This document shows, one piece after another, positions 1,595 to 52,077 of a stretch of DNA of 64,000 nt (position 1 is the stretch's first letter; every line of letters begins with the position of its first letter). The translations under genes and the position numbers were made by a program. The notes below the pieces were generated by a model. The model saw only the letters and a list, made by a program, of their open reading frames with translations, had not been told where the DNA came from and ran no database searches. The stretch lies in assembly GCA_036675035.1 (NCBI GenBank), contig JAKFFO010000119.1, positions 16,002 to 80,001 of the forward strand, read 5' to 3'. Source of the DNA: Oxalobacteraceae bacterium. Lineage in GTDB: Bacteria; Pseudomonadota; Gammaproteobacteria; Burkholderiales; Burkholderiaceae_D.

Positions 1595-3241
1595 TCACAA
1601 TGTCGGCGCCGATTTTCCAGTCATTTCCTCAGCCAGTCCGCTCGCGAGCCGCGCAGTAATGCCGTATATCGACAATTGTGGATTGGCACCGACAGCCGTC
1701 GGAAACAGGGAGCCGTCGTGTACCGATAAATTCGCTACGCCGCGATAACGTCCCAATTCGGATACGATACCCGACTTTGCATCGCCCGACATGGTGCAGC
1801 CTCCCATTACATGCGCCGACACCACGCGAGTGAGCAGCGGTTTGAAGGGCAGTGCGTTGATCGCTTTTTTTGCGCTCGACCAACTGGTATATCCATCGGC
1901 CATTTCATGCACCGGATACACGCTCTTGGCACCTGCCGCAAACTGAATTTCCGCCATCGACAAAAATGCCCTCCTGGCCCCGTCCCATAAAAAATCGGTC
2001 AATGGATAGTCGAGTACCGGCGATCCATTGTCATTCAATTGCACCGTGCCGCCTGGCGAATCAGCACTGAAGCCGTCGCGCAACAACGCAATCAGCGCAT
2101 GCGCGTGCGGGAATTTTTTCATCGTTTCTGCATGTTGGGCGCCGAAGCCTTGCATCGTTGTTGAAAACAGCACGGGATGCAGCGGAGGCGCTTCCAGCTT
2201 GTAACCGATCGGCCCATCGATGGCTTGAGAATTCAGGAAGTGATCCGAATATATCGACTGTGGCGCGCCGGAGAATCCATTGACTTCCTGATCGAACAGT
2301 CCGGACGAAACCAGTGTCGGATGAAGAAAGGTGCGCTTTCCGAGCAGGCCGTTAGGGTCTGGCGCGCCAGATCGCATCAGCAATGCAGGCGAATTGATCG
2401 CTCCTGCGGCGACCACGAAGTGCCGTGCACGTATCGTTATTGTTTTTCCAGTGGCGGCAAGGCCGCTTCGATCCAGTGCCACGCAGGCCAGGGTTTCCAC
2501 CTTGTCACCGCAGAATGCCAGTTTTTCCGCACGCGCTCCGGTGATCAGCGTCGCGCCGTTGGTCAATGCCGCCGGTATGGTGGTCACCAGCATCGATTGT
2601 TTTGCATTGGTCGGGCATCCCATACCGCAATAACCGAGATTCCAGCAGCCTTTCACGTTGCGCATCATCGCCCCGGTTGAAATGCCGAGCCGGGTCGCTC
2701 CTCGCCGCAGCAAGTCATTATTTTCGTTCGGTGCGGTATGCCAAGGGCTTATGCTCAGGCGCCGTTCCATCATCGCAAACCACGGCGTCAAGGCTTCCGC
2801 CGTGTAGCTTTCAAGCCTGAAATTCTTTTGCCAATAGGCGAGGGTATCGGTCGGCGTGCGGAAACTCGATGTCCAGTTGACCGTGGTGGAACCGCCGACC
2901 GCGCGGCCCTGCAGGATATTGATCGCCTTATCTTTGGTTTTGCGGGAAGCGGATTCCTGATACAGGGCCGGATAAGCCTGCGCCTCGCGCATCTTGAAAT
3001 CCCGTGATGATTTAAGCGGTCCTTCTTCAATCAGCACCACCTTCAATCCGGCCAAGCTCAGAATTTCAGCCGTCACACCGCCTCCGGCGCCGGTGCCGAT
3101 GATCGCAACATCGGCTTCGAACACGCGATTGTCGCTCAGGGCCGTCGCGTCGATTATCTTCCAGCCGGCCGCAATGCCTGCCTGGATCGGATCCGCAATC
3201 GGATTCTGGCTCTGACTTGCTGCCACGGTTATGTTCGTCAT
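1595..3241 (-). CDS. GMC-family FAD-dependent oxidoreductase (large subunit)
   Basis: 548 aa. N-terminal Rossmann motif DVAIIGTGAGGGVTAEIL...LIEEG. C-terminal GMC signature region HVMGGCTMSG...VHDGSLFPTAVGANPQLSIYGIT. The start lies 3 nt after the stop of the upstream small-subunit gene. Confidence 0.85.
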   Translation of the reverse strand: MTNITVAASQSQNPIADPIQAGIAAGWKIIDATALSDNRVFEADVAIIGTGAGGGVTAEILSLAGLKVVLIEEGPLKSSRDFKMREAQAYPALYQESASRKTKDKAINILQGRAVGGSTTVNWTSSFRTPTDTLAYWQKNFRLESYTAEALTPWFAMMERRLSISPWHTAPNENNDLLRRGATRLGISTGAMMRNVKGCWNLGYCGMGCPTNAKQSMLVTTIPAALTNGATLITGARAEKLAFCGDKVETLACVALDRSGLAATGKTITIRARHFVVAAGAINSPALLMRSGAPDPNGLLGKRTFLHPTLVSSGLFDQEVNGFSGAPQSIYSDHFLNSQAIDGPIGYKLEAPPLHPVLFSTTMQGFGAQHAETMKKFPHAHALIALLRDGFSADSPGGTVQLNDNGSPVLDYPLTDFLWDGARRAFLSMAEIQFAAGAKSVYPVHEMADGYTSWSSAKKAINALPFKPLLTRVVSAHVMGGCTMSGDAKSGIVSELGRYRGVANLSVHDGSLFPTAVGANPQLSIYGITARLASGLAEEMTGKSAPTL

Positions 3242-3244
3242 AGG

Positions 3245-3763
3245 TCAGCTCAGCATTTTTAACGGTCCGGGATAACCGATTGCAGCCCAGGTCGATTCAT
3301 CGGCATACCATCCGCCGAAAATCAGGTCGTGCAGCGCATGGTAGGCGGTTTGCAGCATCGCGAAACGATGCATGCGCCAGCCTTGGAGGAAGGCGGCCAC
3401 CTCATCCGGTGCGGCTTCGGCCCACGGCTTCGATACGCCTGCGAGAAATCGACGGGTTGGTGCGAAGACAAGCAGGCCGAACAGGTCTTGGATTTCCTTC
3501 TGTGTCGACAGCGGCAATCCTGCGATCGTGTCTTGTACGCGCGCAATCGCCATGTCGACGGCTTGAGGATTGCCCGGGATCGTGCCCAGCAATACGGCTG
3601 AGGTAATAGCTCGCAGTGCCGCTCTGCCTTCTTCGTCAAGCGTGAACCGGCCCGGAGCAGCAGGGCCTTTCGTGATACGGTACACGCCGCCGGCGGCCGC
3701 GAGCACGATTGCGCCCGCCAGGCCGGTTTTCAGAAAGGTGCGGCGCGTTGGTATGCTTGCCAT
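3245..3763 (-). CDS. Tat-signal small subunit of flavoprotein dehydrogenase (gluconate 2-dehydrogenase subunit 3-like)
   Basis: 172 aa. Twin-arginine signal MASIPTRRTFLKTGLAGAIVLAAAGG. Tightly coupled to the GMC gene, the usual arrangement for Tat hitch-hiker export of the FAD subunit. Confidence 0.7.
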   Translation of the reverse strand: MASIPTRRTFLKTGLAGAIVLAAAGGVYRITKGPAAPGRFTLDEEGRAALRAITSAVLLGTIPGNPQAVDMAIARVQDTIAGLPLSTQKEIQDLFGLLVFAPTRRFLAGVSKPWAEAAPDEVAAFLQGWRMHRFAMLQTAYHALHDLIFGGWYADESTWAAIGYPGPLKMLS

Positions 3764-3906
3764 CTTCTTGTTCCTTTCACTTGCGGTACACTTCGCACAA
3801 TCCGTACGCTTTGTATAGCAAAGCGACAGCGAAGAGTTTTAGCGGAACAACGCTGATCATTAATAAACGCGTTAGCCGATATTCGTAGCAGTGTCGAGCT
3901 CGATAT

Positions 3907-5538
3907 TCAAGCGCCGGACCCTATAATATCGGCTTCATCTACTTCGTCGATCTGTTCCGGGCGCAGGAATTCACGCGCATACTGAAGATACACTTTGCTC
4001 CGGACAAAAATATCGAATAACTCCGGATCGATATGTCCATTGAGGCAAAATTTCTTCATGATCCGCAGAGAGTCCGACAGCGTTTTCCCAGATTTGTACG
4101 GGCGATCGCTCGCCGTAAGGGCCTCGAAAATATCCGCGATACCCATGATCCGTGCCTGGACCGACATTTGGGCACGGGTCAGGCCGCGAGGATAACCTTT
4201 CCCATCCATGCGCTCATGATGTCCGCCGGCGAACTCGGGCACGCGCTTGAGATGCTTGACCCACGGAAGGCTTTCAAGCATCTTGATCGTGACGACGATA
4301 TGATTGTTGATGATGTCGCGCTCTGCCTTGGTCAGGGTGCCGGATCGAATCGTCAGGTTTTCGATTTCATTGGTGGTCAGAAAATCGATGCTGTCGCCAT
4401 CCGGGTTTTTCCAGTTGCGCTTGGTACCGATGACGCGTACCGCTTGCTGATCTTTTTCATCCATCGCCTCGCTGCCGGCATTGGCACGTCTTAAAAATTC
4501 CCGGTCCTGCTCCAAGGCATCGAGTTGTTTGTTGAATCGTGTTTCCAGAAATCGCTCGGCTCGCGGATCGGGCGGTGGACGCAGAGCCAGTCTCGCTTTC
4601 AGCATGTCGATCTCGGCATCGCGCTTCAATACTTCAAAGCGGGTATCGATCAGGTCGATGCGGTCGTAGATGGTTTCCAGCTTGGTCGCTTTGTCGACGA
4701 CATGAACCGGAGTGGTTATCTTGCCGCAATCATGCAGCAACCCCGCGATTTTGAGTTCGTAGCGATCCTGATCGGTCATCGTGAATGATGCGAACGGCCC
4801 ATGTTCCGCATTGGCCACCGCGTCGGCGAGCATCATGGTCAATGCCGGTACGCGCTGACAATGTCCGCCGGTATACGCCGATTTGTCATCGATCGCAAAA
4901 TTGATCATGCCGATGAATGCTTCGAACAACTTTTCCTGTTGCACGATCAACTGGCGGTTCGACACCGCGATCGATGCCTGTGACGCCAGCGATTCGACCA
5001 GCCGCTGTGATTCGGCAGAAAAGGGAATTACATCACCGGTATCGTGATCAAGAGCATTGATCAGCTGGACGACACCGATGAGTTCGTTCTCGTGATTTTT
5101 CATCGGAACCGTAAGAAATGATTTCGAGCGATATCCGGTTTGTGTGTCGAACGTCCGGGTTCCGGAAAAATCAAAATTTTCCGCGACATAGGCATCGGGA
5201 ATATTAATAGTACGCCTGTGCAGCGCACAGCAAACCGCAACCATTGATTCGTTCGGCGTGCCGTCCGGCCTGGCCAGCGGTAACGGCGGGAACGGAATCG
5301 GTTTTCCAGAAATGCCGCCCAGCGTGATATCGAGGCTGTCGTTGCGCAGAATCTCGAATTTGAGGTGGGTTCCGCTTTCGTCGATAGAGTAAAGCGTGCC
5401 TCCATCGGCACCGGTAATCTGCTTTGCGGCGATCAGGATTCTTTCCAGCAGGCGGTCGATATTCCGCTCGCTCGATAGTGCCGCGCCGATCTCGTTAAGT
5501 TGTTCAAACCGGAGCAAAAGATCGCTTACTGTACTCAT
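3907..5538 (-). CDS. GAF domain-containing HD-GYP phosphohydrolase (putative c-di-GMP phosphodiesterase)
   Basis: 543 aa. N-terminal GAF (TGYRSKSFLTVPMKNHENELIGVVQLIN). HD motif LLHDCGK and HHERMDGKGYPRGL (HD-GYP signature). The start lies 12 nt after the stop of the upstream ATPase gene. Confidence 0.9.
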   Translation of the reverse strand: MSTVSDLLLRFEQLNEIGAALSSERNIDRLLERILIAAKQITGADGGTLYSIDESGTHLKFEILRNDSLDITLGGISGKPIPFPPLPLARPDGTPNESMVAVCCALHRRTINIPDAYVAENFDFSGTRTFDTQTGYRSKSFLTVPMKNHENELIGVVQLINALDHDTGDVIPFSAESQRLVESLASQASIAVSNRQLIVQQEKLFEAFIGMINFAIDDKSAYTGGHCQRVPALTMMLADAVANAEHGPFASFTMTDQDRYELKIAGLLHDCGKITTPVHVVDKATKLETIYDRIDLIDTRFEVLKRDAEIDMLKARLALRPPPDPRAERFLETRFNKQLDALEQDREFLRRANAGSEAMDEKDQQAVRVIGTKRNWKNPDGDSIDFLTTNEIENLTIRSGTLTKAERDIINNHIVVTIKMLESLPWVKHLKRVPEFAGGHHERMDGKGYPRGLTRAQMSVQARIMGIADIFEALTASDRPYKSGKTLSDSLRIMKKFCLNGHIDPELFDIFVRSKVYLQYAREFLRPEQIDEVDEADIIGSGA

Positions 5539-5550
5539 CGAGCCATCCGC

Positions 5551-7917
5551 CTATTTAATGCAGACCTGGCGCACTTGTTTGATATCGGTCGCGCCGGAAA
5601 GCACTTTTTCGATACCGTCCATTTTCAGGGTAAGCATGCCGTCTTCAAGCGCGGCTGCCAGCAGCTGTGCGACACGCGCGTGTTCCTGCAGTAGGCGTTT
5701 GACCTTGTCCGATCCGACCATGAGTTCGTGCAGGCCGACGCGCCCCTTGTAGCCTTTTCCGCATTGATCGCATCCGACCGCGCGGTAAAGCGTGAACTGA
5801 CCCTTGTCGTCTGCATATCTTTTTTTCCACGTATCCCGAACCGCATCTTTTCCCGCTTGCGGGTCCTTGATGAAGGTTTCGGTATTCAAAAGCTCTTCGC
5901 AATATTCGGTCAGAAGCCGGTCGATTTCTTCCGGAGAAGGGTGATAAGCCATTTTGCACTTCGAGCATAAGCGCTTGGCCAGCCGTTGCGCCAGCACGCC
6001 CAGCAACGCGTCGGCAAAGTTGAACGGGTCCATGCCCATGTCCAGCAGGCGGACGATCGACTCCGGCGCACTGTTGGTGTGCAGGGTTGCGAACACCAGG
6101 TGGCCGGTCAGCGATGCCTCAAGCCCGATCGATACGGTTTCCTTGTCGCGCATCTCGCCGACCATGATGATATCCGGGTCGGCACGCAGGAATGCCCGCA
6201 TTACGGTGGCGAAATCGAGACCGGCCTTGCGGTTGACCTGAACCTGCCGCAATCCTTTTTGCGTGATTTCGACCGGATCTTCCGCGGTCCATATTTTCGT
6301 GTCAGGCGTGTTGAGGAAGCTGAGCACCGAGTGCAATGTCGTGGTTTTTCCGGAGCCGGTCGGGCCGCAAACGAAAAAGATGCCGTATGGCTTGCTGACC
6401 GTCTCCTTGAGCCGGTCCAGGTTGTAGGGCAACACCCCGAGTTTATCGAGGGGAATCGGCTCGCCTGCGGCAAGAATGCGCATCACGACATCCTCGACCC
6501 CACCGGCGGACGGAATCGTCGCTACCCGCAACTCGATATCGAGCGGCCCGTATTTCTTGAACTTGATTTTTCCGTCCTGCGGTTTGCGCCGTTCCGAAAT
6601 ATCAAGGTCGCACATGATCTTGATCCGCGCCAGGATCGCATTGCGGTAACTTGCCGGGATCTCGATGTAGTTTTCGAGCGAGCCGTCCTTGCGAAACCGG
6701 ATGACGGTTTTGTTCTTGCCCGGACTCGGCTCTATATGGATATCGGATGCGCCTTGCCGGTACGCGTCGACTATGATCTTGTTGACCAGCTTGACCAGTT
6801 CATTTTCGGCGGCGGCGGAAATGTCGGTCGCCGATACGTCGTTGTTTTCCTCGTCGCTATCTTCCATGCCCATCAGCAATTCACCGACGGAGGTCGGGTC
6901 GTCGACGATCCCGAAGAATTGATCGATGGTCTGCTTGAATTCGGAATTGGTGGTGACGTTATAGACGACTCTTGCCTTGGGAAAGACATTGTTGACGACA
7001 CGAGCGCTTTTCACCTGCTCCGGGTCCGTCGTCAGGATGACCAAGCCGTCCTTGCCGTCTTCGATCGGCAGCCAGCGATTTTGCTCGACGTACTCCCGCT
7101 TCATGTTTTTCAACAGGTCGAGCGGTTTGATGCGCTCCGCCTTGTATGGGGTATACGGCACACCGAAAAACTTGCCCAGCGCTTCGCCGACGGACGCACG
7201 CTTCACCTGGAATTCGTTGATAAGCACTTCTTCGACATCGATATTCTGCCGTCTCGCAGACCGCGTCGCGAGTTCGAACTCGGGTGCCGACAGCACCGCG
7301 TCGGCGATCAACAGATCGTATTTTGACCGGACCCGCGGGAGCGGCTTGAGCCTCTGGTTGAATGCGATGGCTAGCGTCGCGCACAGCTCTCTCAGGCCAT
7401 CTTCGGCAATTTGATCGAACGGGCCGCCCAGACGATTATTGATGAGCTGAACTACGCCGAGCAACTCGTTGGTCTGGGCATTGATCAGTGGTGCTACCAG
7501 CATTTCCCTGGTGCGGTAACCGGTACGCTTGTCGACTTCCTTCAAAAAATGAAGGTCGGGTGAATGAACCTTCAGTTCGGCGTCGTCGTAGACGTCTTTT
7601 ACATTGACGGTACGTTTGAACAGCGCGACATAACCCGCGACGCTTTGTTCGGACACCGGCAGCTTCAAATCGGTAAAGGAGTTAAGTCCGGTTTTAACTT
7701 TCGAGACAATGAAATCCCGCGCATCGCTCAACACGTAAATGGTGAGCCGATCACAATGGAACAGGTTGCTGATGTCCTGTGACAGATCAAGCATGATCTC
7801 GTCGATGTTGGCGGTAGCATGGATCTTGTTGGTGACTCCCTGCAGTTTCTTGAAAAATTCCAGCCGACTGTTGATGTCGATTCCGCTTCCTTGTTCTTTT
7901 CCTAAAACTGCACTCAT
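5551..7917 (-). CDS. GAF domain-fused GspE/PilB-family (type II/IV secretion) ATPase
   Basis: 788 aa. N-terminal GAF (TGYRTREMLVAPLINAQTNELLGVVQLIN). Central T2SSE_N-like region. Walker A GPTGSGKTTT (nt 6337-6366). Asp/His boxes (IMVGEMRD, ATLHTN). Tetracysteine CSKC...CDQC typical of GspE/PilB rather than PilT. Confidence 0.9.
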   Translation of the reverse strand: MSAVLGKEQGSGIDINSRLEFFKKLQGVTNKIHATANIDEIMLDLSQDISNLFHCDRLTIYVLSDARDFIVSKVKTGLNSFTDLKLPVSEQSVAGYVALFKRTVNVKDVYDDAELKVHSPDLHFLKEVDKRTGYRTREMLVAPLINAQTNELLGVVQLINNRLGGPFDQIAEDGLRELCATLAIAFNQRLKPLPRVRSKYDLLIADAVLSAPEFELATRSARRQNIDVEEVLINEFQVKRASVGEALGKFFGVPYTPYKAERIKPLDLLKNMKREYVEQNRWLPIEDGKDGLVILTTDPEQVKSARVVNNVFPKARVVYNVTTNSEFKQTIDQFFGIVDDPTSVGELLMGMEDSDEENNDVSATDISAAAENELVKLVNKIIVDAYRQGASDIHIEPSPGKNKTVIRFRKDGSLENYIEIPASYRNAILARIKIMCDLDISERRKPQDGKIKFKKYGPLDIELRVATIPSAGGVEDVVMRILAAGEPIPLDKLGVLPYNLDRLKETVSKPYGIFFVCGPTGSGKTTTLHSVLSFLNTPDTKIWTAEDPVEITQKGLRQVQVNRKAGLDFATVMRAFLRADPDIIMVGEMRDKETVSIGLEASLTGHLVFATLHTNSAPESIVRLLDMGMDPFNFADALLGVLAQRLAKRLCSKCKMAYHPSPEEIDRLLTEYCEELLNTETFIKDPQAGKDAVRDTWKKRYADDKGQFTLYRAVGCDQCGKGYKGRVGLHELMVGSDKVKRLLQEHARVAQLLAAALEDGMLTLKMDGIEKVLSGATDIKQVRQVCIK

Positions 7918-8126
7918 GTCATGTCATCCGTTCTTCAGTGATATTGGTGATGCCTTTAAATCGCGGCCATGCCAAATTTGAAAGAGTAAATAATGTACCT
8001 GCGGCAGCAACTTGACGTGAAAATATTTTGATTCATATCGGCGGCACTTGCGTTCTGACTTGCCGACTCGGTATCGTGGCTGCCGGAGCGCTGCCGCGGA
8101 CTGCGTCGACAGTGAATCTCCATCTT

Positions 8127-8894
8127 TCAAAGTTCAAATACCTGATTGTTTTGCAGCATTCCGGGCGTGCGTCCTTGGATATTTTCTCGTACTTCCCGCA
8201 TTGTTATTTCACTTCTCCCCGGCTTCAAGTGAGTAATGAACACCTCCGGGTCGCCTCGCATTTTCTGAAGCTCTGTCGCCAGCATGGTCGGACATAAATG
8301 CTTGGACACAAGAGCAAGCGGCCTTTCGCTTTCGGAAAAAGCGGTTTCGATGATGAGATAGCGCAAGTTCGATATCTTGTTCAACTCTTGCCAAAAGTCG
8401 TCGCTGGTGGTCGTGTCGCCGGTGAATGCCAGGCTCGCGCGTCCGGAATCAAGTCGATAGCCAACCGCGGGAACGGTATGCGTAGCGGGCAACGCGGTAA
8501 TCCTGCGTTCTCCAAGCTGCACGGTTTCGCCTAGTTGTATGGTCTGAAAGCGCAGGTACGGATTATTGGAATCGGGAATTTGACTGAAATCCGGCCAGAT
8601 CGACCAGTTGAAGATGTGCGTTCTGATGATGTCTTGCGTCGCCTGGGTGGCGTACATCGTCAGCGGATTGGTGCGCAGATCGCCTACCGCGTCAAGAATG
8701 AACGGCAAAAAGGCGATATGGTCCAGATGCGAGTGCGTGACGAACACATGGTCGATCGTTGCCAGTTCGGTGATGCCGAGTTCACCGACGCCGGTGCCCG
8801 CGTCGATCAAAATGTCATGATCGACCAGTATCGAGGTCGTACGCAGCTGGCTTCCGCCGATTCCGCCGCTGCAGCCAAGGATCTTTACCTTCAT
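8127..8894 (-). CDS. class II 3',5'-cyclic-nucleotide phosphodiesterase (MBL fold)
   Basis: I place the start at the internal ATG (MKVKILGCSGGIGG), 10 nt after the cyclase stop, because the longer ORF would overlap the cyclase. Class II PDE signature VTHSHLDHIAFLPF. Confidence 0.8.
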   Translation of the reverse strand: MKVKILGCSGGIGGSQLRTTSILVDHDILIDAGTGVGELGITELATIDHVFVTHSHLDHIAFLPFILDAVGDLRTNPLTMYATQATQDIIRTHIFNWSIWPDFSQIPDSNNPYLRFQTIQLGETVQLGERRITALPATHTVPAVGYRLDSGRASLAFTGDTTTSDDFWQELNKISNLRYLIIETAFSESERPLALVSKHLCPTMLATELQKMRGDPEVFITHLKPGRSEITMREVRENIQGRTPGMLQNNQVFEL

Positions 8895-8904
8895 TATTTT
8901 CGAC

Positions 8905-11136
8905 CTATTTTGTATCGAATCGGGTAACCCCGGTCCATGCCGCATCCAGAGGTTCCTTGCTCAATCTGGCAATGCGTTCCTTGTAAAGTGCATACAGCCG
9001 GAAATCCGGCTGCATTCGTGCCAGTTCATCAAGCACTGCCTCCGCCTCTTGCCAGTTCTGCTGTCGATAATATTGCAGCATCTTGTTCCACAGTTCCAGT
9101 TCCTGGACAACCGGCCCGGTCAGCTGCCCGTCAATGCCGACCGGTTCGAAAATTGCGACCGGCTTGTCTTTCCCCACGACCTGTACCAGATCAAGCTCTC
9201 TGAACTGAATGTCGCTGACAGCATGCCTGGTGGCTTCGCCCACGATGATACCGACACCATACTGCTTGGTAATGCTTTCCAGGCGTGACCCCAGGTTGAC
9301 TGCATCGCCCATCACCGTATAGGCCTTGCGCACTACCGACCCCATGTCGCCGACGGTCATGGTTCCGGTGTTGATTCCGATTCCGATTTTCATTTCCTGT
9401 ATCCCGCGTGCCGCCAAGGTACGGTTCAGGTCTTCCAGTGCATTCTGCATTTCCAACGCGGTAATTATTGCGTTGCGTGCATGGTCGGAATCGCTTACCG
9501 GAGCACCCCAGAATGCCATGATCGCATCGCCGATATACTTGTCGAGAGTTCCCCGGTGTTCGCGGATCACCAGCGTCATCGCGCTGAGATACTCGTTCAT
9601 CAAATGCGCCAGCTGATCCGGCTCCATGCCTTCCGACATGCTTGTGAATCCCCGGACGTCCGAAAACAATACCGTCAGCTCCGCCTTTCGACCTTCCATG
9701 CTGTAACTCTGGGGATTGCGGCTCATTTCTTCGACCAGTTTGGGGGGCACGTATTGGCCGAACAATTCCGTAAACTGGCGCTTCGTCCTGGATTCGAAAA
9801 AATAACCGTAGGACATGTTCAATACATACAATCCGCCCAGGAGCAGCAGACTGGGCGCAAGAGGCTGCACCCAGTTTGCGTATTCCCATAAGCTGAGATT
9901 GGTGCCGATGATCGCGGCCAGCATCAGAAGTGTAGTGAGCGTGGCGCGTAGTGGTGAGCGCCAGGGGAACAGAAAAATCATCACCCCGCCGACCAGCAAC
10001 AGAAAAATGAACTCGACCGCTACTGCATATTGCGGCTTGAGTTTGATACTGCCGTCCAGCATGCCGGTGATGAGATTCGCATGGACCTCGACTCCGGGAT
10101 AGACAGGACTCACCGGGGTCGTGCGCTGATCCTTCAAGCCGGGCGCGGTGGTACCGATGAGCGCAATCCGCCCTCGGAGTTGCTCCGGTTTGATGCGGTC
10201 GGCCAATATGTCCGCGATCGAGTAATACCGATAACTTTTTTCATAGCCGCGATAAGGCACAAGTGCTGCCAGATTTTCATCGACCGGAATTCGCAATGTA
10301 CCCTGCGCGGTCGGCAGGTCCAGCCAGTCGACCGCGCCGTATTCGCCGGCAGTAGTGTCATCGCTTGCCTCGAAGCCGGGAACAATATCAGGACTGCCCA
10401 GCAATGCACGCACCATCGCAAGCGACAAGGTTTCGTAGTAACTACCATCGTGCTTCATCATCAGCGGTACGCGACGCACGCTGCCATCCGGGTCGGTAAT
10501 CGGATTGACATAGCCCGCACCAAAGGCCGCTTGCTGGAACACCTGAAGATTACCGCCATAATTTGGCCAGGAAAGTACCTTGGCATCCCGGTCCTTGAGC
10601 GCCGAAGCCGGCAATACGGGCGATGGGATGACGCCGCTGCTTCTTCCTTCATCCGCAAAGTAATAACCCAGGATGACCGGTTTGCCGTTGAGGGATTTGA
10701 CGAACAGTCCGTCGTAGTCGAGTTGCGGGCGAAGCTGATTGACTACCGCCAGATACTGCTGATCGTGTCTGAGTTCTGCTTGTGCCAGACCGTCGAGAAC
10801 CTTCAGCCCGGAGCTGTGGTCCGCTTCTGCGAGAAAGACGTCAAAGCCCAGTAGTCGAATTCCATATTGATCGAACAGCTTGTCAACCAGCTTTGCCATC
10901 CGGTCGCGACCCCAAGGCCACCGGCCGACTTCGGCCAGGCTTTTTTCGTCGATATCGAGAATTACCAGCCGGTCGTCTACCGTCTGCGGCATGGTCAGCC
11001 GTATTTTCGTATCGTATAAAAGATTATCGAGGGAATTGATAAACGATATCTGGTATGCCGAACTCGTGTGAAGAAGAAGCACAAGCAGGAGCAATAGCCC
11101 GAATACATAGCGGATTGCATGTTGTCTCAAAAGCAA
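8905..11136 (-). CDS. CHASE2 sensor domain-containing class III adenylate/guanylate cyclase
   Basis: 743 aa. N-terminal TM helix plus a large periplasmic-type region, then three or four TM helices. Catalytic domain LTVLFSDVRGFTSMSE ... LDKYIGDAIMAFWGAP ... YTVMGDAVNLGSRLE. C-terminal helical tail. Confidence 0.9.
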   Translation of the reverse strand: MLLRQHAIRYVFGLLLLLVLLLHTSSAYQISFINSLDNLLYDTKIRLTMPQTVDDRLVILDIDEKSLAEVGRWPWGRDRMAKLVDKLFDQYGIRLLGFDVFLAEADHSSGLKVLDGLAQAELRHDQQYLAVVNQLRPQLDYDGLFVKSLNGKPVILGYYFADEGRSSGVIPSPVLPASALKDRDAKVLSWPNYGGNLQVFQQAAFGAGYVNPITDPDGSVRRVPLMMKHDGSYYETLSLAMVRALLGSPDIVPGFEASDDTTAGEYGAVDWLDLPTAQGTLRIPVDENLAALVPYRGYEKSYRYYSIADILADRIKPEQLRGRIALIGTTAPGLKDQRTTPVSPVYPGVEVHANLITGMLDGSIKLKPQYAVAVEFIFLLLVGGVMIFLFPWRSPLRATLTTLLMLAAIIGTNLSLWEYANWVQPLAPSLLLLGGLYVLNMSYGYFFESRTKRQFTELFGQYVPPKLVEEMSRNPQSYSMEGRKAELTVLFSDVRGFTSMSEGMEPDQLAHLMNEYLSAMTLVIREHRGTLDKYIGDAIMAFWGAPVSDSDHARNAIITALEMQNALEDLNRTLAARGIQEMKIGIGINTGTMTVGDMGSVVRKAYTVMGDAVNLGSRLESITKQYGVGIIVGEATRHAVSDIQFRELDLVQVVGKDKPVAIFEPVGIDGQLTGPVVQELELWNKMLQYYRQQNWQEAEAVLDELARMQPDFRLYALYKERIARLSKEPLDAAWTGVTRFDTK

Positions 11137-11344
11137 ACTCCCGTTGCTTGTGGTTTTCTATTATTTTGTGCGCTGAACCGGCTGGCGGCGGTAATCGTTT
11201 TTTTATATCGCAGCCCCGCGTTATTTTATTTTCGAATATCACGCATCTGGCTGGAATCGTACACTGTTTTTTGTGTATTTAATTCAGTTATTTGCTATAA
11301 AAACACGGTCGTTGCGCCAGAAAAATGCCCTTTTCGAGATCGAA

Positions 11345-11863
11345 TTAACGAGAGGGCGAATTGTTGTCCAAGTAATCGTCGGTGCTGGTCAGGCGCGTGC
11401 CTGCCAATCGGTCATGAAGAAATTGGCGTTCCCGGTCCAGGTAAGTGGCTATCGCCCAGATCGCGACGTTGGCGAACGGGATTAAAAGCAACATTCCTTT
11501 TTCTGCTTCGACCAACCATGCCAGCGCGAGGCCCGGGAAAATCGATAGCCATGCGAGCAAGTATCTGGCAATCGCGCGCCACACCGTCACCTGCTTCCCA
11601 TCGATATCGGTTACCCGGATTTTCCAGGTCTTCATCGCGAGTGTCTGACCGCCATGAGTCCAGAACCAGACAAAATAAATACCAAGTACGAGAAAAAGCC
11701 AGTCCTGCAAGGCGCTGCGCAAATATAGCGCGTGACGTTGCTCCATGAGGGTGGAAAATATCCATACCGCCGCAAACAGGACGGCAAACACCAGAATCGA
11801 TTCGTATAACATGCTGGCGAGGCGGCGCTTCAGCGATGGCGTTGCGATGAGTTTCGAGGTCAA
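11345..11863 (-). CDS. RDD family membrane protein
   Basis: 172 aa with a TTG start. PSLKRRLASMLYESILVFAV, three TM segments, and the C-terminal YLDRERQFLHDRLAGTRL typical of RDD proteins. Confidence 0.75.
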   Translation of the reverse strand: MTSKLIATPSLKRRLASMLYESILVFAVLFAAVWIFSTLMEQRHALYLRSALQDWLFLVLGIYFVWFWTHGGQTLAMKTWKIRVTDIDGKQVTVWRAIARYLLAWLSIFPGLALAWLVEAEKGMLLLIPFANVAIWAIATYLDRERQFLHDRLAGTRLTSTDDYLDNNSPSR

Positions 11864-12708
11864 GTGGAAAATGAATTCTGTCTAAGGTTGTCGGGGTAGC
11901 GGATTTGATGCCGCCGTCGAAATATTCGATGGATGCAGCCTTTCCCGCACGCTCCATATCCTGCTGCGAGCAGTAATGCGGCTGATTGACGAGGAGGGGT
12001 TCTTGAACCTCTTCATCGACTGCAGCAAAGGCCTGATTGCGTTTTGGCTTGATCCGTACTTGTTTCAGCGGCGTTGCAGCGACGGCCTGATTCAGAGGTA
12101 TCGAGCCAATCGCCTTCGAGATTTCCCGAATATTTGGTCAGACTCGAATCGTGAACCGTGTGCGGCAATAAGCGCCGGATCAGTGCCAGCCCTTTGGCAG
12201 CACTCCCGTCTTCGTGCTGGGACGGGGAAAGCGGACGGATGTTGCCCAATGCGTCAGCGGGCAAATTCAAAACTTTGCGCATGCTAGCAAAAAAGGCTGC
12301 ATTTGTGCGGGTTTTTAGCGCAAAAACGCTTGATTTTAAAGCGATTTCGAAGAATTTGACTTGACCAAAATGGTGCAACGCATTAACGTATCACTCCCTT
12401 CGCCATCTCGAAGGGGCATTATGTTCTTTTCGAACGCGGCGCATGATGCCGCCACTCGACGAGACGCGCTTTATTAGAAAGCTGTTTGCTCTAACCCGCG
12501 CCACAAGCGTGAAAAATTTGCATCGGTACTTTGGAATCTCCGGCTGAACGAGTCGCGTCAAGCGTCGGTTTGAACCACATTCACGAATGTGCAACGAAAC
12601 GGCGCAACCCGCACAACCAAGGGAAGCCTCTGATCCATCGATACTCTGCGATTTTGCCAGGAGAGAGCATCCGATCAATTTCCAATGGACCTTGAAAGGA
12701 CTTGTAAC

Positions 12709-49815: not shown

Positions 49816-52077
49816 ATGGTTTCAATAGCTGCCGCACACAATGAAACGCAGGAGCATTTGTCTGCCGGCCTCGGTGACGTGGATTCTGCGCGCGTGATGA
49901 ATGCGCTTGAGCTCGTGAAGCCGACATATGCAGCTGCGACTGTTTCGTCGGGACAGAACACCTTTGAGTTCTCGATGGGAGTGGCAGCTACGCTTGCGTT
50001 GCTGGAAGCTGATGCGGAAACTCGAATCGCGGGGTTGCTGTTTGAACTGCCGGTGATTGACTCAGCAGCCGCGGCAACGATCGAATCACGCTTCGGAACG
50101 GAAGTCGCGGAACTTGTGATTGATATTCGCAAATTGATGCGATTGCATGAAGTCACCTTCAGTCAGCATGAAATCACCGATCGCAAGAGCGCACCCCAGC
50201 AAGCTGCAGCGCAAGCGGAAACCTTGCGCAAAATGCTGTTGGCGATGGCGTCGGATATGAGGGTGGTGTTGGTTCGTCTGGCCTCGCGCGTGACGACCTT
50301 GAGATATTTTGCCGATCAGAAGATGCAAAATGAGAGAACGCGAAGATATGCTCAGGCTACTTTCGATTTATATGCACCATTGGCGAATCGGCTTGGAATC
50401 TGGCAGCTCAAATGGGAGCTGGAGGATCTCTCGTTTCGCTTTATAGAGCCGGAAGCGTATAAGCGCATTGCCCGCATGCTTGAAGAAAAGCGCATGGAGC
50501 GTGAAGGATTCGTCAGCTCCGCAATTGCACGATTGCGCTCAGAGCTCAAGAGCGCCGGAGTCGACGCGGAGGTATCCGGACGACCTAAGCATATTTACAG
50601 CATCTGGACCAAGATGCATGGAAAGGAACTGGAATTTTCGGAACTGTATGACGTCCGTGCTTTTCGCGTGATCGTCGATGAAGTCAAGACTTGCTATTCC
50701 GTGCTCGGGATCGTCCACAATATCTGGACCCCGATTCCGGAAGAGTTCGACGATTACATTTCACGTCCGAAACCGAACGGATATCGATCGCTGCATACCG
50801 TGGTCGTCGCCGACGACGGCCGCCCGCTGGAAGTGCAGATACGTACTCGCGACATGCATCATTTTGCGGAGTATGGCGTCGCCGCACACTGGCGTTATAA
50901 AGAAGGCGGAGGCGCGCAAGCGGCCGGCCAGAAATATGACGAGAAAATCGCATGGCTGCGACAATTGCTGGCATGGAAAAATGAAGTTGTCGACGCTGTC
51001 GCCAGCCAGGAAGAGAGTCATCGCGAATGGGTTGAGAAACTCAAGTCCGCGACGCTCGATGACCGCATATACATATTGACCCCGCAGGCACGTGTCATCG
51101 AACTGCCGAACGGCGCGACGCCAATCGATTTTGCTTACCATCTGCACAGCGATGTCGGCCATCGCTGCCGCGGTGCGCGCGTCGACGGCGCGATGGTGCC
51201 TCTCAATACGCCATTGAAGAACGGTCAAACGGTCGAGATCATTACCGCCAAGGGAGGAGCCACAGCCGCTGGCCCGTCGCGTGACTGGCTCAGCGCGGGC
51301 TTCACTGCCAGCCCCCGCACGCGATCGAAAGTGCGGGCCTGGTTCAATGCGATTGATAAGCAGGAGACCCTCGCCACCGGCCGCAGCCTGATTGATAAAA
51401 CGTTGCAGCGTGAGGGCAAGACCGCGGTCAATCTGGAGGAATTGGCGCATAAGCTCGGCTTTGCAAAGCTCGACGATTTGTTGCTGGCGGTTGGCAAGGA
51501 ACAGTTCAGCTTGCGTCATGTCGAGCATGCGCTGCATGAGGGGGAGGCGCCGAAGGAGGGGGGCGCCCAAATCAACCCCGATGACGCCCTCATCCCGCGA
51601 AAAAGCCGCGCGTCGAGCGTCGTGCATGGTGCAAAATCGGGCGTGCTGGTTGTCGGCACCGACGGTTTGATGACCCAGCTGGCAAGATGCTGCAAGCCGG
51701 CACCGCCCGACGAAATCGTCGGATTCATTACCCGCGGCCGAGGCGTGTCGATTCACCGCGCGAGCTGCAAAAATTTTATGGAAATGCGTATTCGGGCTCC
51801 CGAGCGTGTGATCGAAACGGAATGGGGCGGCGCTGGTTCGGAAACCGTTTATCCGGTCGATATTTTCGTTCTTGCAAGCGATCGCCAGGGATTGTTGCGC
51901 GATATTTCCGAGATTTTTCTGCGCGAGAAAATCAACGTGATCGGTGTAAGCACGCAAAGCGCAAAAGGGCATGCAAGAATGGCATTTACCGCTGAAATTT
52001 CGTCAACCGCACAACTGCTCAAGGCGCTGGGCGTCATACGTGAAGTGGACGGTGTGCAGGAAGTTCGTCGCCAGTAA
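49816..52077 (+). CDS. relA: GTP pyrophosphokinase, RelA-type long RSH
   Basis: 753 aa. Synthetase core HIYSIWTKMHGKELEFSELYDVRAFRVIV...YRSLHTVV, with TGS and C-terminal ACT regions. No HD dyad visible in the N-terminal pseudo-hydrolase region. Confidence 0.88.
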   Translation: MVSIAAAHNETQEHLSAGLGDVDSARVMNALELVKPTYAAATVSSGQNTFEFSMGVAATLALLEADAETRIAGLLFELPVIDSAAAATIESRFGTEVAELVIDIRKLMRLHEVTFSQHEITDRKSAPQQAAAQAETLRKMLLAMASDMRVVLVRLASRVTTLRYFADQKMQNERTRRYAQATFDLYAPLANRLGIWQLKWELEDLSFRFIEPEAYKRIARMLEEKRMEREGFVSSAIARLRSELKSAGVDAEVSGRPKHIYSIWTKMHGKELEFSELYDVRAFRVIVDEVKTCYSVLGIVHNIWTPIPEEFDDYISRPKPNGYRSLHTVVVADDGRPLEVQIRTRDMHHFAEYGVAAHWRYKEGGGAQAAGQKYDEKIAWLRQLLAWKNEVVDAVASQEESHREWVEKLKSATLDDRIYILTPQARVIELPNGATPIDFAYHLHSDVGHRCRGARVDGAMVPLNTPLKNGQTVEIITAKGGATAAGPSRDWLSAGFTASPRTRSKVRAWFNAIDKQETLATGRSLIDKTLQREGKTAVNLEELAHKLGFAKLDDLLLAVGKEQFSLRHVEHALHEGEAPKEGGAQINPDDALIPRKSRASSVVHGAKSGVLVVGTDGLMTQLARCCKPAPPDEIVGFITRGRGVSIHRASCKNFMEMRIRAPERVIETEWGGAGSETVYPVDIFVLASDRQGLLRDISEIFLREKINVIGVSTQSAKGHARMAFTAEISSTAQLLKALGVIREVDGVQEVRRQ

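What the first reader, a model, noticed from the sequence alone, without database searches (positions are those of the whole stretch)
3907..11136. Four-gene cyclic-nucleotide island: sensor cyclase and cNMP phosphodiesterase upstream of two GAF-gated outputs, an orphan PilB/GspE-type ATPase and an HD-GYP
Four consecutive minus-strand genes form two tightly coupled pairs. The first pair is the CHASE2 class III cyclase and the class II cNMP phosphodiesterase (10-nt gap). After a 209-nt spacer comes the GAF-GspE/PilB ATPase and the GAF-HD-GYP (12-nt gap). The island therefore encodes a cNMP writer, a cNMP eraser and two proteins whose N-termini are GAF domains, a fold known to bind cAMP/cGMP in cyanobacterial CyaB1/2 and mammalian PDE2/5/6. 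The outputs are a c-di-GMP-type phosphodiesterase and a hexameric secretion/pilus motor ATPase. No platform protein (GspF/PilC), pilin or pseudopilin, secretin, PilMNOPQ or prepilin peptidase occurs anywhere in the 64 kb, so the ATPase is orphan here. Working hypothesis (inference): an extracytoplasmic signal sensed by CHASE2 is converted to cAMP, and both GAF modules read that cAMP. This would couple it to c-di-GMP turnover and to an ATPase acting on a distant pilus/secretion machine or on something not yet recognised. I cannot tell from the sequence whether this module has been characterised.
Basis: partly seen in the sequence, partly recalled or inferred. Interest (0 to 1): 0.75.

Follow-up and report, generated by a model that had tools for sequence, protein, structure and literature searches.

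The report
cAMP island gating a pilus-type ATPase
Four adjacent genes, kept together across many betaproteobacteria, encode a maker and a breaker of cyclic AMP plus two probable cAMP-sensing outputs (a pilus-motor-type ATPase and a c-di-GMP-type phosphodiesterase); direct cAMP control of a pilus motor has not been described.

Summary
Four minus-strand ORFs at 3907-11136 encode a CHASE2 class III cyclase, an MBL/class II cNMP phosphodiesterase, a GAF-MshEN-like-T2SSE ATPase and a GAF-HD-GYP. The gaps are 10, 209 and 12 nt. No pilus or secretion gene was found in the 64 kb.

The adjacency is not chance. Of 57 betaproteobacterial species loci with full flanks, 54 have the HD-GYP next to the ATPase and 51 have the cyclase. 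Two different gene orders occur.

The cyclase and its orthologues carry the Lys/Thr adenylate signature. Both GAFs match only cyclic-nucleotide GAFs among solved structures, best the cAMP-binding CyaB2. The ATPase family lacks the MshEN c-di-GMP motif (0 of 268 members).

Outside Oxalobacteraceae the island is longer. It adds a CHASE2 kinase, PP2C, an FHA protein and a cNMP-binding-rhodanese protein. In 22 of 31 loci a type IVa pilin gene lies downstream.

Best reading: a self-contained cAMP circuit that gates a PilB-like motor and an HD-GYP. The HD-GYP half has a precedent (Tlr0485). I found no description of the GAF-ATPase half. Ligand binding is inferred, not shown. I rate it a new variant of a known kind, of moderate to good interest.

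The parts
8905..11136 (-). CHASE2 sensor fused to a class III (IIIb-like) adenylate cyclase, 743 aa. It has an N-terminal TM helix, a periplasmic CHASE2 domain (res 17-384), three TM helices and a cyclase domain (res 483-659). The true start is probably TTG 11130.
   Evidence: Pfam. PDB phmmer: best matches are Cya2, CyaB and CyaC, with 'LDKYIGD' (Lys) and 'AYTVMGDAVNLGSR' (Thr, Asn, Arg). Orthologue motifs. Start context.
8127..8897 (-). Metallo-beta-lactamase-fold cyclic-nucleotide phosphodiesterase (class II PDE / Apyc1-like), 256 aa, with an HSHLDH motif.
   Evidence: Pfam Lactamase_B_2 and PDEase_II (45.4 bits, cut-off 23.7). Orthologues carry precomputed PF23023 Anti-Pycsar_Apyc1 and PF02112. 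HxHxDH is present in 41/41 orthologues. Weak PDB hits to YhfI-like 6KNS and yeast PDE1 4OJV.
7918..8126 (-). 209-nt spacer between the phosphodiesterase and the ATPase. In many relatives this position holds a cNMP_binding-rhodanese gene.
   Evidence: Sequence. cNMP-rhodanese gene in L035 and at least 16 other loci. No Rfam match. No promoter-like or terminator-like site on the minus strand.
5551..7917 (-). GAF-MshEN-like-T2SSE ATPase (PilB/GspE superfamily), 788 aa.
   Evidence: Pfam. NCBIfam scores are below the PilB and GspE equivalog cut-offs. Walker A, the Asp and His boxes and four Cys are invariant. Foldseek: 37-40% identity to PilB/PilF and 31-33% to GspE.
7363..7809 (-). GAF domain of the ATPase (about res 37-185), of the cNMP-binding type.
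   Evidence: All 20 PDB hits are cNMP-type GAFs or PmGH. The best is CyaB2 (1YKD), 1.3e-24. pLDDT is about 80-89. T59, D129, T136 and Q157 are invariant.
6910..7326 (-). [quoted passage not shown]
   Evidence: Pfam MshEN. Weak match to the M. xanthus PilB N-terminus. The relaxed 24-residue motif of Wang et al. 2016 (PMC5013675) is absent in the window protein and in 0/268 family members.
5572..6807 (-). T2SSE ATPase core (res 371-782), with CxxC...CxxC.
   Evidence: Pfam T2SSE 4.4e-115. Invariant motifs.
3907..5538 (-). GAF-HD-GYP phosphodiesterase, 543 aa.
   Evidence: Pfam. PDB: V-cGAP3 (5Z7C) 1.3e-21 and PmGH (4MCW) 4.9e-15. HHE..DG.GYP is present in 45/45 orthologues.
4957..5466 (-). GAF domain of the HD-GYP protein (res 25-194), of the cNMP-binding type.
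   Evidence: All 17 PDB hits are cNMP-type GAFs or PmGH. CyaB2 GAF-B scores 62 bits in one stretch. It is 34% identical to the ATPase GAF over 106 aa.
4348..4671 (-). Insertion of about 105 aa inside the HD-GYP domain (about res 290-397), between 'VDKATKLE' and 'RSGTLTKAE'.
   Evidence: Alignment to 5Z7C and 4MCW. The HD-to-HHE distance is 159-208 aa in 40 orthologues. It resembles the HD-GYP insertion domain described for LIC_11189 (PMC12943098). Homology to that domain was not tested.

Best explanation
The four genes form a self-contained cyclic-AMP signalling circuit that is inherited as a unit in Betaproteobacteria.

Proposed chain:
1. An extracytoplasmic cue acts on the CHASE2 domain.
2. 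The class III cyclase makes cAMP.
3. The MBL/class II phosphodiesterase removes it.
4. Two cytoplasmic proteins read cAMP through N-terminal cNMP-type GAF domains.

Its MshEN-like domain has lost the c-di-GMP pocket, so cAMP, not c-di-GMP, would gate the motor. The second reader is an HD-GYP phosphodiesterase that would lower c-di-GMP or a related dinucleotide when cAMP rises. The likely output is extension of a type IVa pilus built by machinery encoded elsewhere in the genome, coordinated with a drop in c-di-GMP.

Shown here: the gene content, the motifs, the synteny and the pilin linkage in relatives.

Inferred: the CHASE2 input, cAMP as the product, cAMP binding by both GAFs, the direction of regulation, and the pilus as the target.
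For: Synteny:
- The genome scan confirmed 547 relatives of the ATPase N-terminus; the best 80 loci are all Betaproteobacteria.
- Of 57 loci with full flanks, 54 have the HD-GYP, 51 the cyclase, and 42 all four gene types. There are 24 same-strand loci and 24 divergent loci.

Cyclase: the catalytic Asp, Lys, Thr, Asn and Arg are present, as in CyaB and CyaC, and are conserved in orthologues.

GAF domains:
- PDB hits for both are restricted to cNMP GAFs plus PmGH. The best single-domain scores are to cAMP-binding CyaB2. Foldseek agrees.
- Residues aligned to the cNMP-contact positions of PDE2A GAF-B are kept and are invariant down to 42% overall identity.

Further cNMP readers in the longer island: a cNMP_binding-rhodanese protein and a cNMP_binding Ser/Thr kinase.

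Pilus link:
- A type IVa pilin gene lies downstream of the HD-GYP in 22 of 31 same-strand loci with at least 2.5 kb of downstream flank.
- In a separate clade the pilin gene follows the ATPase directly.
- The ATPase core is closest to PilB/PilF.

The MshEN c-di-GMP motif is absent (PMC5013675).

Precedents: the cAMP-activated GAF-HD-GYP Tlr0485, the GAF-GGDEF Lcd1 and the cNMP-EAL Bd1971 (PMC8846402).
Against: - No ligand binding, enzyme activity or phenotype is known for any member.
- The NKFDE signature is imperfect in the window ATPase (F167-x3-A-E), and the HD-GYP GAF of divergent-order loci varies at the position equivalent to T488.
- Nucleotide preference cannot be read from sequence.
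- Outside Betaproteobacteria the GAF-ATPase stands alone, with no cyclase, PDE or HD-GYP nearby. The GAF ligand there need not come from a dedicated cyclase.
- No pilin or platform gene is linked in the window or in any Oxalobacteraceae locus.
- The best solved match of the HD-GYP is a 3'3'-cGAMP phosphodiesterase, so its substrate is open.
- The AlphaFold model is poor for the ATPase core (pTM 0.31).
Confidence: 0.55

Rival explanations
1. The gene set is the same, but the messenger or the wiring differs. The GAFs might bind cGMP or another small molecule. They might act only as dimerisation or regulatory modules. The neighbouring cyclase might signal instead through CRP-type or cNMP_binding proteins. 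On this view the linkage reflects co-expression rather than a direct chain from cyclase to GAF.
For: GAF ligands vary widely, and the ligand of PmGH is unknown (bioRxiv 10.1101/2021.11.05.467447). Dedicated cNMP_binding proteins exist in the longer island. Orphan GAF-ATPases in Nitrospinota and other clades have no adjacent cyclase. The NKFDE motif is imperfect in the window protein.
Against: The PDB hits of both GAFs are exclusively cNMP-type. The pocket positions are invariant. The adenylate signature is conserved in the linked cyclase. The linkage survives rearrangement of gene order, which argues for functional rather than merely transcriptional coupling.
Confidence: 0.22
2. The ATPase is not a pilus extension motor. 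It might power a type II-like secretion step, for example for the TPS/ShlB adhesin genes found beside it in Oxalobacteraceae. Alternatively it might act as a nucleotide-sensing regulator or scaffold without a filament.
For: No pilin or platform gene is near it in the window or in any Oxalobacteraceae locus. ShlB, TPS and FecR genes are adjacent in Noviherbaspirillum, Janthinobacterium and Massilia. Its scores fall below both the PilB and the GspE equivalog cut-offs.
Against: Pilin genes are adjacent in 22 of 31 same-strand loci and in an independent clade. It is more similar to PilB/PilF (37-40%) than to GspE (31-33%). From general knowledge, two-partner secretion needs no cytoplasmic ATPase.
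Confidence: 0.13
3. The island is an anti-phage defence or counter-defence module of the Pycsar type: a cyclase plus effectors, with an Apyc1-like phosphodiesterase.
For: The cyclase domain matches PADLOC PycC models (best 2e-29). Orthologues of the phosphodiesterase carry the Pfam Anti-Pycsar_Apyc1 family.
Against: Any class III cyclase matches PycC. No effector model matches. The Lys/Thr pair predicts ATP as substrate. The island sits between housekeeping genes in a conserved chromosomal context and is kept across families of Betaproteobacteria. That pattern is unlike patchy defence islands.
Confidence: 0.03

Closest known systems
Tlr0485 of Thermosynechococcus vulcanus, a cAMP-activated GAF-HD-GYP c-di-GMP phosphodiesterase (Enomoto et al. 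2020, cited in PMC8846402 and bioRxiv 10.1101/2021.11.05.467447)
   Same: GAF followed by HD-GYP. The GAF is of the cNMP type, and cAMP-to-c-di-GMP cross-talk is the proposed logic.
   Different: The window protein has an insertion of about 105 aa inside the HD-GYP domain. It is encoded beside its presumed cyclase, a phosphodiesterase and a GAF-ATPase. Its substrate and activation are untested.
MshE / PilB-type ATPases gated by c-di-GMP through the MshEN domain (V. cholerae MshE, P. aeruginosa PA14_29490; PMC5013675, PMC4624772)
   Same: A PilB/GspE-family hexameric ATPase with an N-terminal nucleotide-messenger sensor. The MshEN-fold domain is present.
   Different: Both 24-residue c-di-GMP motifs are absent (0/268 family members). 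A cNMP-type GAF is added in front. The ATPase is not encoded in an msh, pil or gsp operon.
Tandem GAF domains of Anabaena CyaB2 (1YKD) and of mammalian PDE2/5/6/10
   Same: These are the best sequence and fold matches of both GAFs. The 'D..TGYRT...GV.QL.N' core is conserved.
   Different: Here the GAF is single and is fused to an ATPase or an HD-GYP rather than to a cyclase or a class I PDE. Ligand binding has not been measured.
P. aeruginosa CyaB (3R5G), with cAMP-Vfr control of type IV pili, and Xanthomonas FimX-PilZ-PilB / RpfG (HD-GYP) control of pili
   Same: The cyclase catalytic domain is similar to CyaB and has the same Lys/Thr pair. The theme of linking cAMP, an HD-GYP and PilB to pilus output is shared.
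   Different: From general knowledge, those systems act through transcription (Vfr) or adaptor proteins (PilZ, FimX). Here the sensor is fused to the motor itself.
Threonine-phosphorylation switch of the H1-T6SS (PpkA kinase, PppA PP2C, Fha1), from general knowledge
   Same: In the longer island of relatives, a membrane Ser/Thr kinase, a PP2C and an FHA protein are encoded beside a machine ATPase.
   Different: The kinase sensor is CHASE2 and the machine is pilus-type. These three genes are absent from the window.

Membership tests
Class III adenylate cyclase (CHASE2-linked receptor cyclase) | Guanylate_cyc catalytic domain with two metal-binding Asp and the transition-state Asn and Arg | tested here: met
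   Pfam 1.2e-22. 'FSDVRGFT', 'IGDA' and 'VNLGSR' align with CyaB and CyaC.
Class III adenylate cyclase (CHASE2-linked receptor cyclase) | Adenine-specifying Lys plus Asp/Thr pair (versus Glu plus Cys/Gly/Ser in guanylate cyclases) | tested here: met
   Lys in 'LDKYIGD' and Thr in 'AYTVMGD'. Cya2 (2W01) has Glu and Gly at the same columns. Lys is kept in 53/53 and Thr in 47/53 orthologues.
Class III adenylate cyclase (CHASE2-linked receptor cyclase) | cAMP synthesis in vitro | not testable with these tools
   Needs an enzyme assay.
Class II (MBL-fold) cyclic-nucleotide phosphodiesterase / Apyc1-like | MBL fold with the HxHxDH metal motif and a PDEase_II profile match above the gathering score | tested here: met
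   HSHLDH is present. PDEase_II scores 45.4 bits against a cut-off of 23.7, but covers only profile positions 83-175 of 340.
Class II (MBL-fold) cyclic-nucleotide phosphodiesterase / Apyc1-like | NCBIfam equivalog NF041851 (cyclic nucleotide-degrading phosphodiesterase) | tested here: not met
   44.9 bits against a cut-off of 400. It is a relative, not an equivalog.
PilB (type IVa pilus extension ATPase) | T2SSE core with Walker A and B, Asp box, His box and a tetracysteine Zn site | tested here: met
   These are invariant columns in A3. Foldseek gives 37-40% identity to Thermus and Geobacter PilB.
PilB (type IVa pilus extension ATPase) | Equivalog-level score (TIGR02538) and a gene position in a pilB-pilC-pilD or pilus operon | tested here: not met
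   483 bits against a cut-off of 675. There is no platform, peptidase or pilin gene in the window. A pilin gene is adjacent only in relatives.
GspE (T2SS ATPase) | Equivalog-level score (TIGR02533) and a position in a gsp operon | tested here: not met
   445 bits against a cut-off of 630. No gsp genes are nearby.
MshE-type c-di-GMP receptor (MshEN) | Two 24-residue motifs RLGxxLLxxGLLxxxxLxxxLxxQ (relaxed form in PMC5013675) | tested here: not met
   Regex scan: no hit in the window protein and 0/268 in homologues, while a control built from the published consensus is found. The aligned positions read SKY... and DVE....
cNMP-binding GAF domains (CyaB1/2, PDE2/5/6/10) | GAF fold, closest to cNMP-binding members | tested here: met
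   All PDB sequence hits of both GAFs belong to this group or to PmGH. Foldseek finds 1YKD, 1MC0, 3LFV and 2ZMF.
cNMP-binding GAF domains (CyaB1/2, PDE2/5/6/10) | NKFDE signature and conserved ligand-contact residues | tested here: inconclusive
   Most of the family has N-[KR]...F-x3-D-E. The window ATPase has N160-N-R...F167-DQI-A-E. Contact positions of PDE2A GAF-B (residue list recalled from Martinez et al. 2002) map as follows: S424 to T59, I458/A459 to V93/A94, D485 to D129, T488 to T132, T492 to T136 and E512 to Q157.
cNMP-binding GAF domains (CyaB1/2, PDE2/5/6/10) | Measured binding of cAMP or cGMP | not testable with these tools
   Needs ITC, DRaCALA or DSF.
HD-GYP c-di-GMP phosphodiesterase | HD and HHExxDGxGYP motifs with the metal ligands | tested here: met
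   'LLHDCGK' and 'HHERMDGKGYP' are present. They align to V-cGAP3 and PmGH and are kept in orthologues.
HD-GYP c-di-GMP phosphodiesterase | Substrate is c-di-GMP rather than 3'3'-cGAMP | not testable with these tools
   The best solved match is the cGAMP-specific V-cGAP3 (80.5 bits), ahead of PmGH (58.9 bits). This does not decide the substrate.
Pycsar anti-phage system | A PycC cyclase next to a cNMP-activated effector (TM or TIR) | tested here: not met
   Only generic PycC matches for the cyclase. No effector model matches.

The most novel reading that the evidence does not exclude
A messenger swap in pilus-motor control. In this widespread ATPase family the ancestral c-di-GMP pocket of the MshEN domain has been lost, and a cAMP-binding GAF has been placed in front of it. 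A PilB-type motor would then be switched directly by cAMP. In Betaproteobacteria that cAMP would be made, degraded and also used to clear c-di-GMP by genes in the same island. In most lineages a CHASE2 kinase / PP2C / FHA phospho-switch would add further control.
Probability: 0.35. Interest if true: 0.72.

Novelty: new variant of a known kind. Interest (0 to 1): 0.58.

Why it matters
Type IV pili drive surface motility, adhesion, DNA uptake and biofilm entry. From general knowledge, their motors are known to be tuned by c-di-GMP directly (MshE, some PilB) or through adaptor proteins, and by cAMP only through transcription (Vfr/CRP).

A GAF-fused PilB-like ATPase with its own cyclase and phosphodiesterase would be the first case of direct cAMP gating of such a motor. 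It would also provide a compact, genetically linked example of cAMP-to-c-di-GMP cross-talk.

The island is found in many environmental Betaproteobacteria, including iron oxidisers, denitrifiers and soil Oxalobacteraceae. All parts are soluble domains that can be tested in vitro, so the hypothesis is directly testable.

It also gives a handle on the still unknown ligand of CHASE2 domains. Two CHASE2 receptors, a kinase and a cyclase, sit in the same island in most lineages.

Tried and rejected
- An exact look-up of the window ATPase found no record. The window genome is not in the collection. The nearest match is 92% identical, and the nearest named genome is a Herminiimonas MAG at 83%.
- A 16-sequence N-terminal alignment was too diverse for the locus scan. 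A 5-sequence alignment worked.
- I tested whether the linkage extends beyond Betaproteobacteria. It does not. GAF-ATPases of Nitrospinota and other clades stand alone among housekeeping genes. One clade has a pilin, an ankyrin protein and a PilZ protein downstream.
- An MSHA-like secretin cluster lies near the island in one Herminiimonas MAG. It is absent from the other loci, and the window ends before that point. I rejected it as a general partner.
- The defence-system reading was rejected after the PADLOC scan.
- Rfam found nothing across 3500-12700, including the 209-nt spacer.
- The promoter and terminator consensus scan shows nothing in the spacer on the coding strand and is near background overall. 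It is uninformative on co-transcription.
- The AlphaFold model of the ATPase is good only for the GAF and MshEN-like parts (pLDDT about 75-89). It is poor for the ATPase core (pTM 0.31), so I used no inter-domain geometry.
- Eight literature searches for GAF-fused PilB/GspE/T2SSE ATPases or for this gene set found no description. The library covers open-access papers only.

Full report
**1. The observation**

| Gene | Coordinates | Size | Pfam result |
|---|---|---|---|
| Cyclase | 8905-11136 | 743 aa | CHASE2 6.9e-56 (res 17-384); Guanylate_cyc 1.2e-22 (res 483-659) |
| Phosphodiesterase | 8127-8897 | 256 aa from the ATG | Lactamase_B_2 3.7e-19; PDEase_II 7.6e-12 |
| ATPase | 5551-7917 | 788 aa | GAF 9.6e-10; MshEN 2e-08; T2SSE 4.4e-115 |
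| HD-GYP protein | 3907-5538 | 543 aa | GAF 3e-14; HD 7e-11 (res 224-296); HD_5 6.5e-41 (res 390-507) |

- The gaps are 10 nt, 209 nt and 12 nt.
- The cyclase most likely starts at the TTG at 11130, six bases after a GGGAG, rather than at 11136.
- The rest of the window encodes ilvBNC, SIMPL, pssA, leuA, pnp, tpiA, the nuo operon, ETF-QO, CoA transferase, relA/spoT, thrS and pheST.
- There is no second T2SSE gene and no ORF with a pilin-type leader.
- So the ATPase is orphan within these 64 kb.

**2. Is it more than chance?**

The ATPase is about 75% identical through Oxalobacteraceae. The nearest named genome is a Herminiimonas MAG at 83%.

A scan of one genome per species with the GAF-MshEN region confirmed 547 relatives. 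It returned the best 80 loci, all from Betaproteobacteria: Oxalobacteraceae, Rhodocyclaceae, Gallionellaceae, Nitrosomonadales, Sulfuricella and Pelomicrobium.

I ran tblastn with the four window proteins against these loci. Among the 57 loci with full flanks:
- 54 have the HD-GYP gene next to the ATPase.
- 51 have the cyclase.
- 42 have cyclase, an MBL phosphodiesterase and HD-GYP together.

Two arrangements occur.
- **Type A** (24 loci) has the window's order, cyclase > PDE > ATPase > HD-GYP, all on one strand. It occurs in Herminiimonas and in the non-Oxalobacteraceae families.
- **Type B** (24 loci) has the ATPase divergent from a PDE > HD-GYP > cyclase operon. It occurs in Noviherbaspirillum, Janthinobacterium, Duganella, Massilia and Undibacterium.

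Linkage that survives such a rearrangement is strong evidence of a functional unit.

**3. The longer island**

In Gallionella (L035) the gene order is as follows:
- CHASE2 Ser/Thr kinase
- PP2C
- FHA protein
- CHASE2 cyclase
- PDE
- cNMP_binding-rhodanese protein
- GAF-ATPase
- GAF-HD-GYP
- type IVa pilin (N_methyl + Pilin)
- TPR protein
- further on, a Ser/Thr kinase with a cNMP_binding domain

The kinase, PP2C and FHA trio recurs in most non-Oxalobacteraceae loci. The cNMP-rhodanese gene recurs in at least 16 loci. It sits exactly where the window has its 209-nt spacer.

A pilin gene lies downstream of the HD-GYP in 22 of 31 type A-like loci with at least 2.5 kb of flank, and usually within 0.5 kb. 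No type B locus has one, and neither does the window.

The window therefore carries the reduced four-gene core.

**4. The parts**

*Cyclase.* The best solved relatives are Cya2, P. aeruginosa CyaB and Spirulina CyaC.
- The substrate-specifying pair is Lys ('LDKYIGD') and Thr ('AYTVMGD'), as in the adenylate cyclases CyaB and CyaC.
- The guanylate cyclase Cya2 has Glu and Gly at these columns.
- The metal-binding Asp residues and the Asn and Arg are present.
- The Lys is kept in 53/53 orthologues and the Thr in 47/53.

*Phosphodiesterase.*
- The HSHLDH motif is kept as HxHxDH in 41/41 orthologues.
- Orthologues carry the class II PDE and Apyc1 Pfam families.
- Solved relatives are weak: RNase Z, a YhfI-like hydrolase and yeast PDE1.

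*GAF domains.*
- All 20 PDB hits of the ATPase GAF, and all 17 of the HD-GYP GAF, are cNMP-binding GAFs (CyaB2, PDE2A, PDE5, PDE6, PDE10) or the GAF of the HD-GYP protein PmGH.
- The best single-domain scores are to cAMP-binding CyaB2: 45 and 43 bits for the ATPase GAF, and 62 bits for the HD-GYP GAF.
- Using the HMMER alignment to PDE2A GAF-B, and the contact list as I recall it from Martinez et al. 2002, the contact positions map as follows: S424 to T59, I458/A459 to V93/A94, D485 to D129, T488 to T132, T492 to T136, and E512 to Q157 (Gln, as in CyaB2).
- T59, D129, T136 and Q157 are invariant in an alignment that reaches 42% overall identity.
- The two GAFs of the island are 34% identical to each other.

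*MshEN-like domain.* It aligns only weakly with the N-terminus of M. xanthus PilB.
- The relaxed c-di-GMP motif published by Wang et al. (PMC5013675) is found in none of 268 family members.
- A control built from the published consensus is found.
- The canonical c-di-GMP pocket is therefore absent.

*ATPase core.*
- Walker A, the Asp box, Walker B, the His box and the four Cys are invariant.
- NCBIfam puts the protein nearest PilB (483 bits) and GspE (445 bits), but below both cut-offs.
- Foldseek gives 37-40% identity to PilB/PilF and 31-33% to GspE.
- The model is reliable only for the GAF and MshEN-like parts.

*HD-GYP.*
- All motifs are present.
- An insertion of about 105 residues lies between 'VDKATKLE' and 'RSGTLTKAE'. 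It is conserved: the HD-to-HHE distance is 159-208 aa in 40 orthologues.
- It resembles the HD-GYP insertion domain recently named in Leptospira LIC_11189 (PMC12943098). I did not test homology.
- The best solved match is the cGAMP-specific V-cGAP3, followed by PmGH. The substrate is open.

**5. Beyond Betaproteobacteria**

The N-terminal GAF-MshEN region has 232 relatives at E <= 1e-30 among 50%-identity cluster representatives.

- In Nitrospinota, often with two GAFs, and in two other clades, the ATPase stands alone among housekeeping genes. No cyclase, PDE, HD-GYP or pilin gene is nearby.
- In one metagenomic clade the gene is followed directly by a pilin, an ankyrin protein and a PilZ protein.

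The ATPase family is therefore broad and usually orphan. The cAMP island is a betaproteobacterial elaboration. The recurring pilin neighbour points to a type IV pilus.

**6. Mechanism**

Most likely (confidence about 0.55), the chain runs as follows:
- The CHASE2 domain senses an outside cue.
- The cyclase makes cAMP.
- The MBL phosphodiesterase resets it.
- cAMP binds the GAF of the PilB-like ATPase and the GAF of the HD-GYP.

Motor activity and dinucleotide hydrolysis would then change together.

Precedents exist for GAF or cNMP domains that pass cAMP on to c-di-GMP enzymes: Tlr0485, Lcd1 and Bd1971 (PMC8846402). Precedents also exist for messenger-gated MshE/PilB ATPases (PMC5013675).

Eight literature searches found no description of a GAF-fused PilB/GspE ATPase or of this gene set.

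Rivals:
- Another GAF ligand, or only transcriptional coupling (0.22).
- A non-pilus role for the ATPase (0.13).
- A Pycsar-like defence module (0.03).

**7. Verdict**

It is sharpened in two ways: the likely target is a type IV pilus, and the four genes are the core of a longer signalling island.

The HD-GYP half is a new member of a known kind. The GAF-gated PilB-like ATPase and the conserved island are a new variant of a known kind. Interest is 0.58.

Noticed in passing
L001 12380-18275; L003 12380-18564; L029 42-6337; L031 2990-4576: In divergent-order (type B) Oxalobacteraceae loci, a FecR-domain gene, a very large TPS-domain (haemagglutinin-like) gene and a ShlB/POTRA transporter gene lie directly beside the CHASE2 cyclase or the GAF-ATPase. 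They may relate to the unknown CHASE2 input.
   Followed up: partly
L001 530-4387 and 20466-22373; L003 666-4376 and 19882-22146: In Noviherbaspirillum and in Janthinobacterium sp. 17J80-10 the island is flanked by flhDC-motAB on one side and relA/spoT on the other. In the window relA/spoT lies 40 kb away (49816-52077).
   Followed up: no
L029 14383-16188; L024 8816-10069: A second ATPase paralogue of the same family lies 2 kb from the GAF-ATPase. In Massilia frigida (L029) it is 601 aa, has MshEN and T2SSE but no GAF, and is 76% identical in the core. No PilC-like gene follows it there.
   Followed up: partly
L032 9051-9953; L029 8991-9959: In Duganella, Massilia and Pseudoduganella the class II PDE is replaced by a different MBL-fold gene (about 24% identical). 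It lies directly upstream of the ATPase on the same strand.
   Followed up: partly
L087 896-5547; L088 495-5146: A metagenomic clade has the order GAF-ATPase > type IV pilin (186 aa) > ankyrin-repeat protein > PilZ-domain protein, with no cyclase or HD-GYP.
   Followed up: partly
L002 18551-22370: The Herminiimonas MAG has MSHA-like genes (secretin with Secretin_N_2, AAA_22, TPR) 4.5-8 kb downstream of the HD-GYP, with no mshE or mshG next to them. This is not seen in other loci, and the window ends before the equivalent point.
   Followed up: partly
window 11345-11863 (-): An RDD-family membrane protein gene (65% identical to its counterpart in L002) lies upstream of the cyclase, separated by an AT-rich stretch of about 200 nt. 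The ECF sigma, DUF3619 and DUF3106 genes present in L002 are absent here.
   Followed up: partly
window 1595-3763 (-): A GMC oxidoreductase (548 aa) and a small subunit with a twin-arginine signal (172 aa) lie between the HD-GYP and the alpha/beta hydrolase (505-1482). The Herminiimonas MAG has no genes at that position.
   Followed up: no
window 5986-7326 (+): A 446-aa antisense ORF lies inside the ATPase gene. It is an artefact of the G+C-rich reverse frame, not a gene.
   Followed up: no
L085 10001-12844 and proteins P0289-P0389: The Nitrospinota versions of the ATPase carry two tandem GAF domains (about 910-1020 aa) and are encoded alone, next to genes such as gyrAB or topA.
   Followed up: partly
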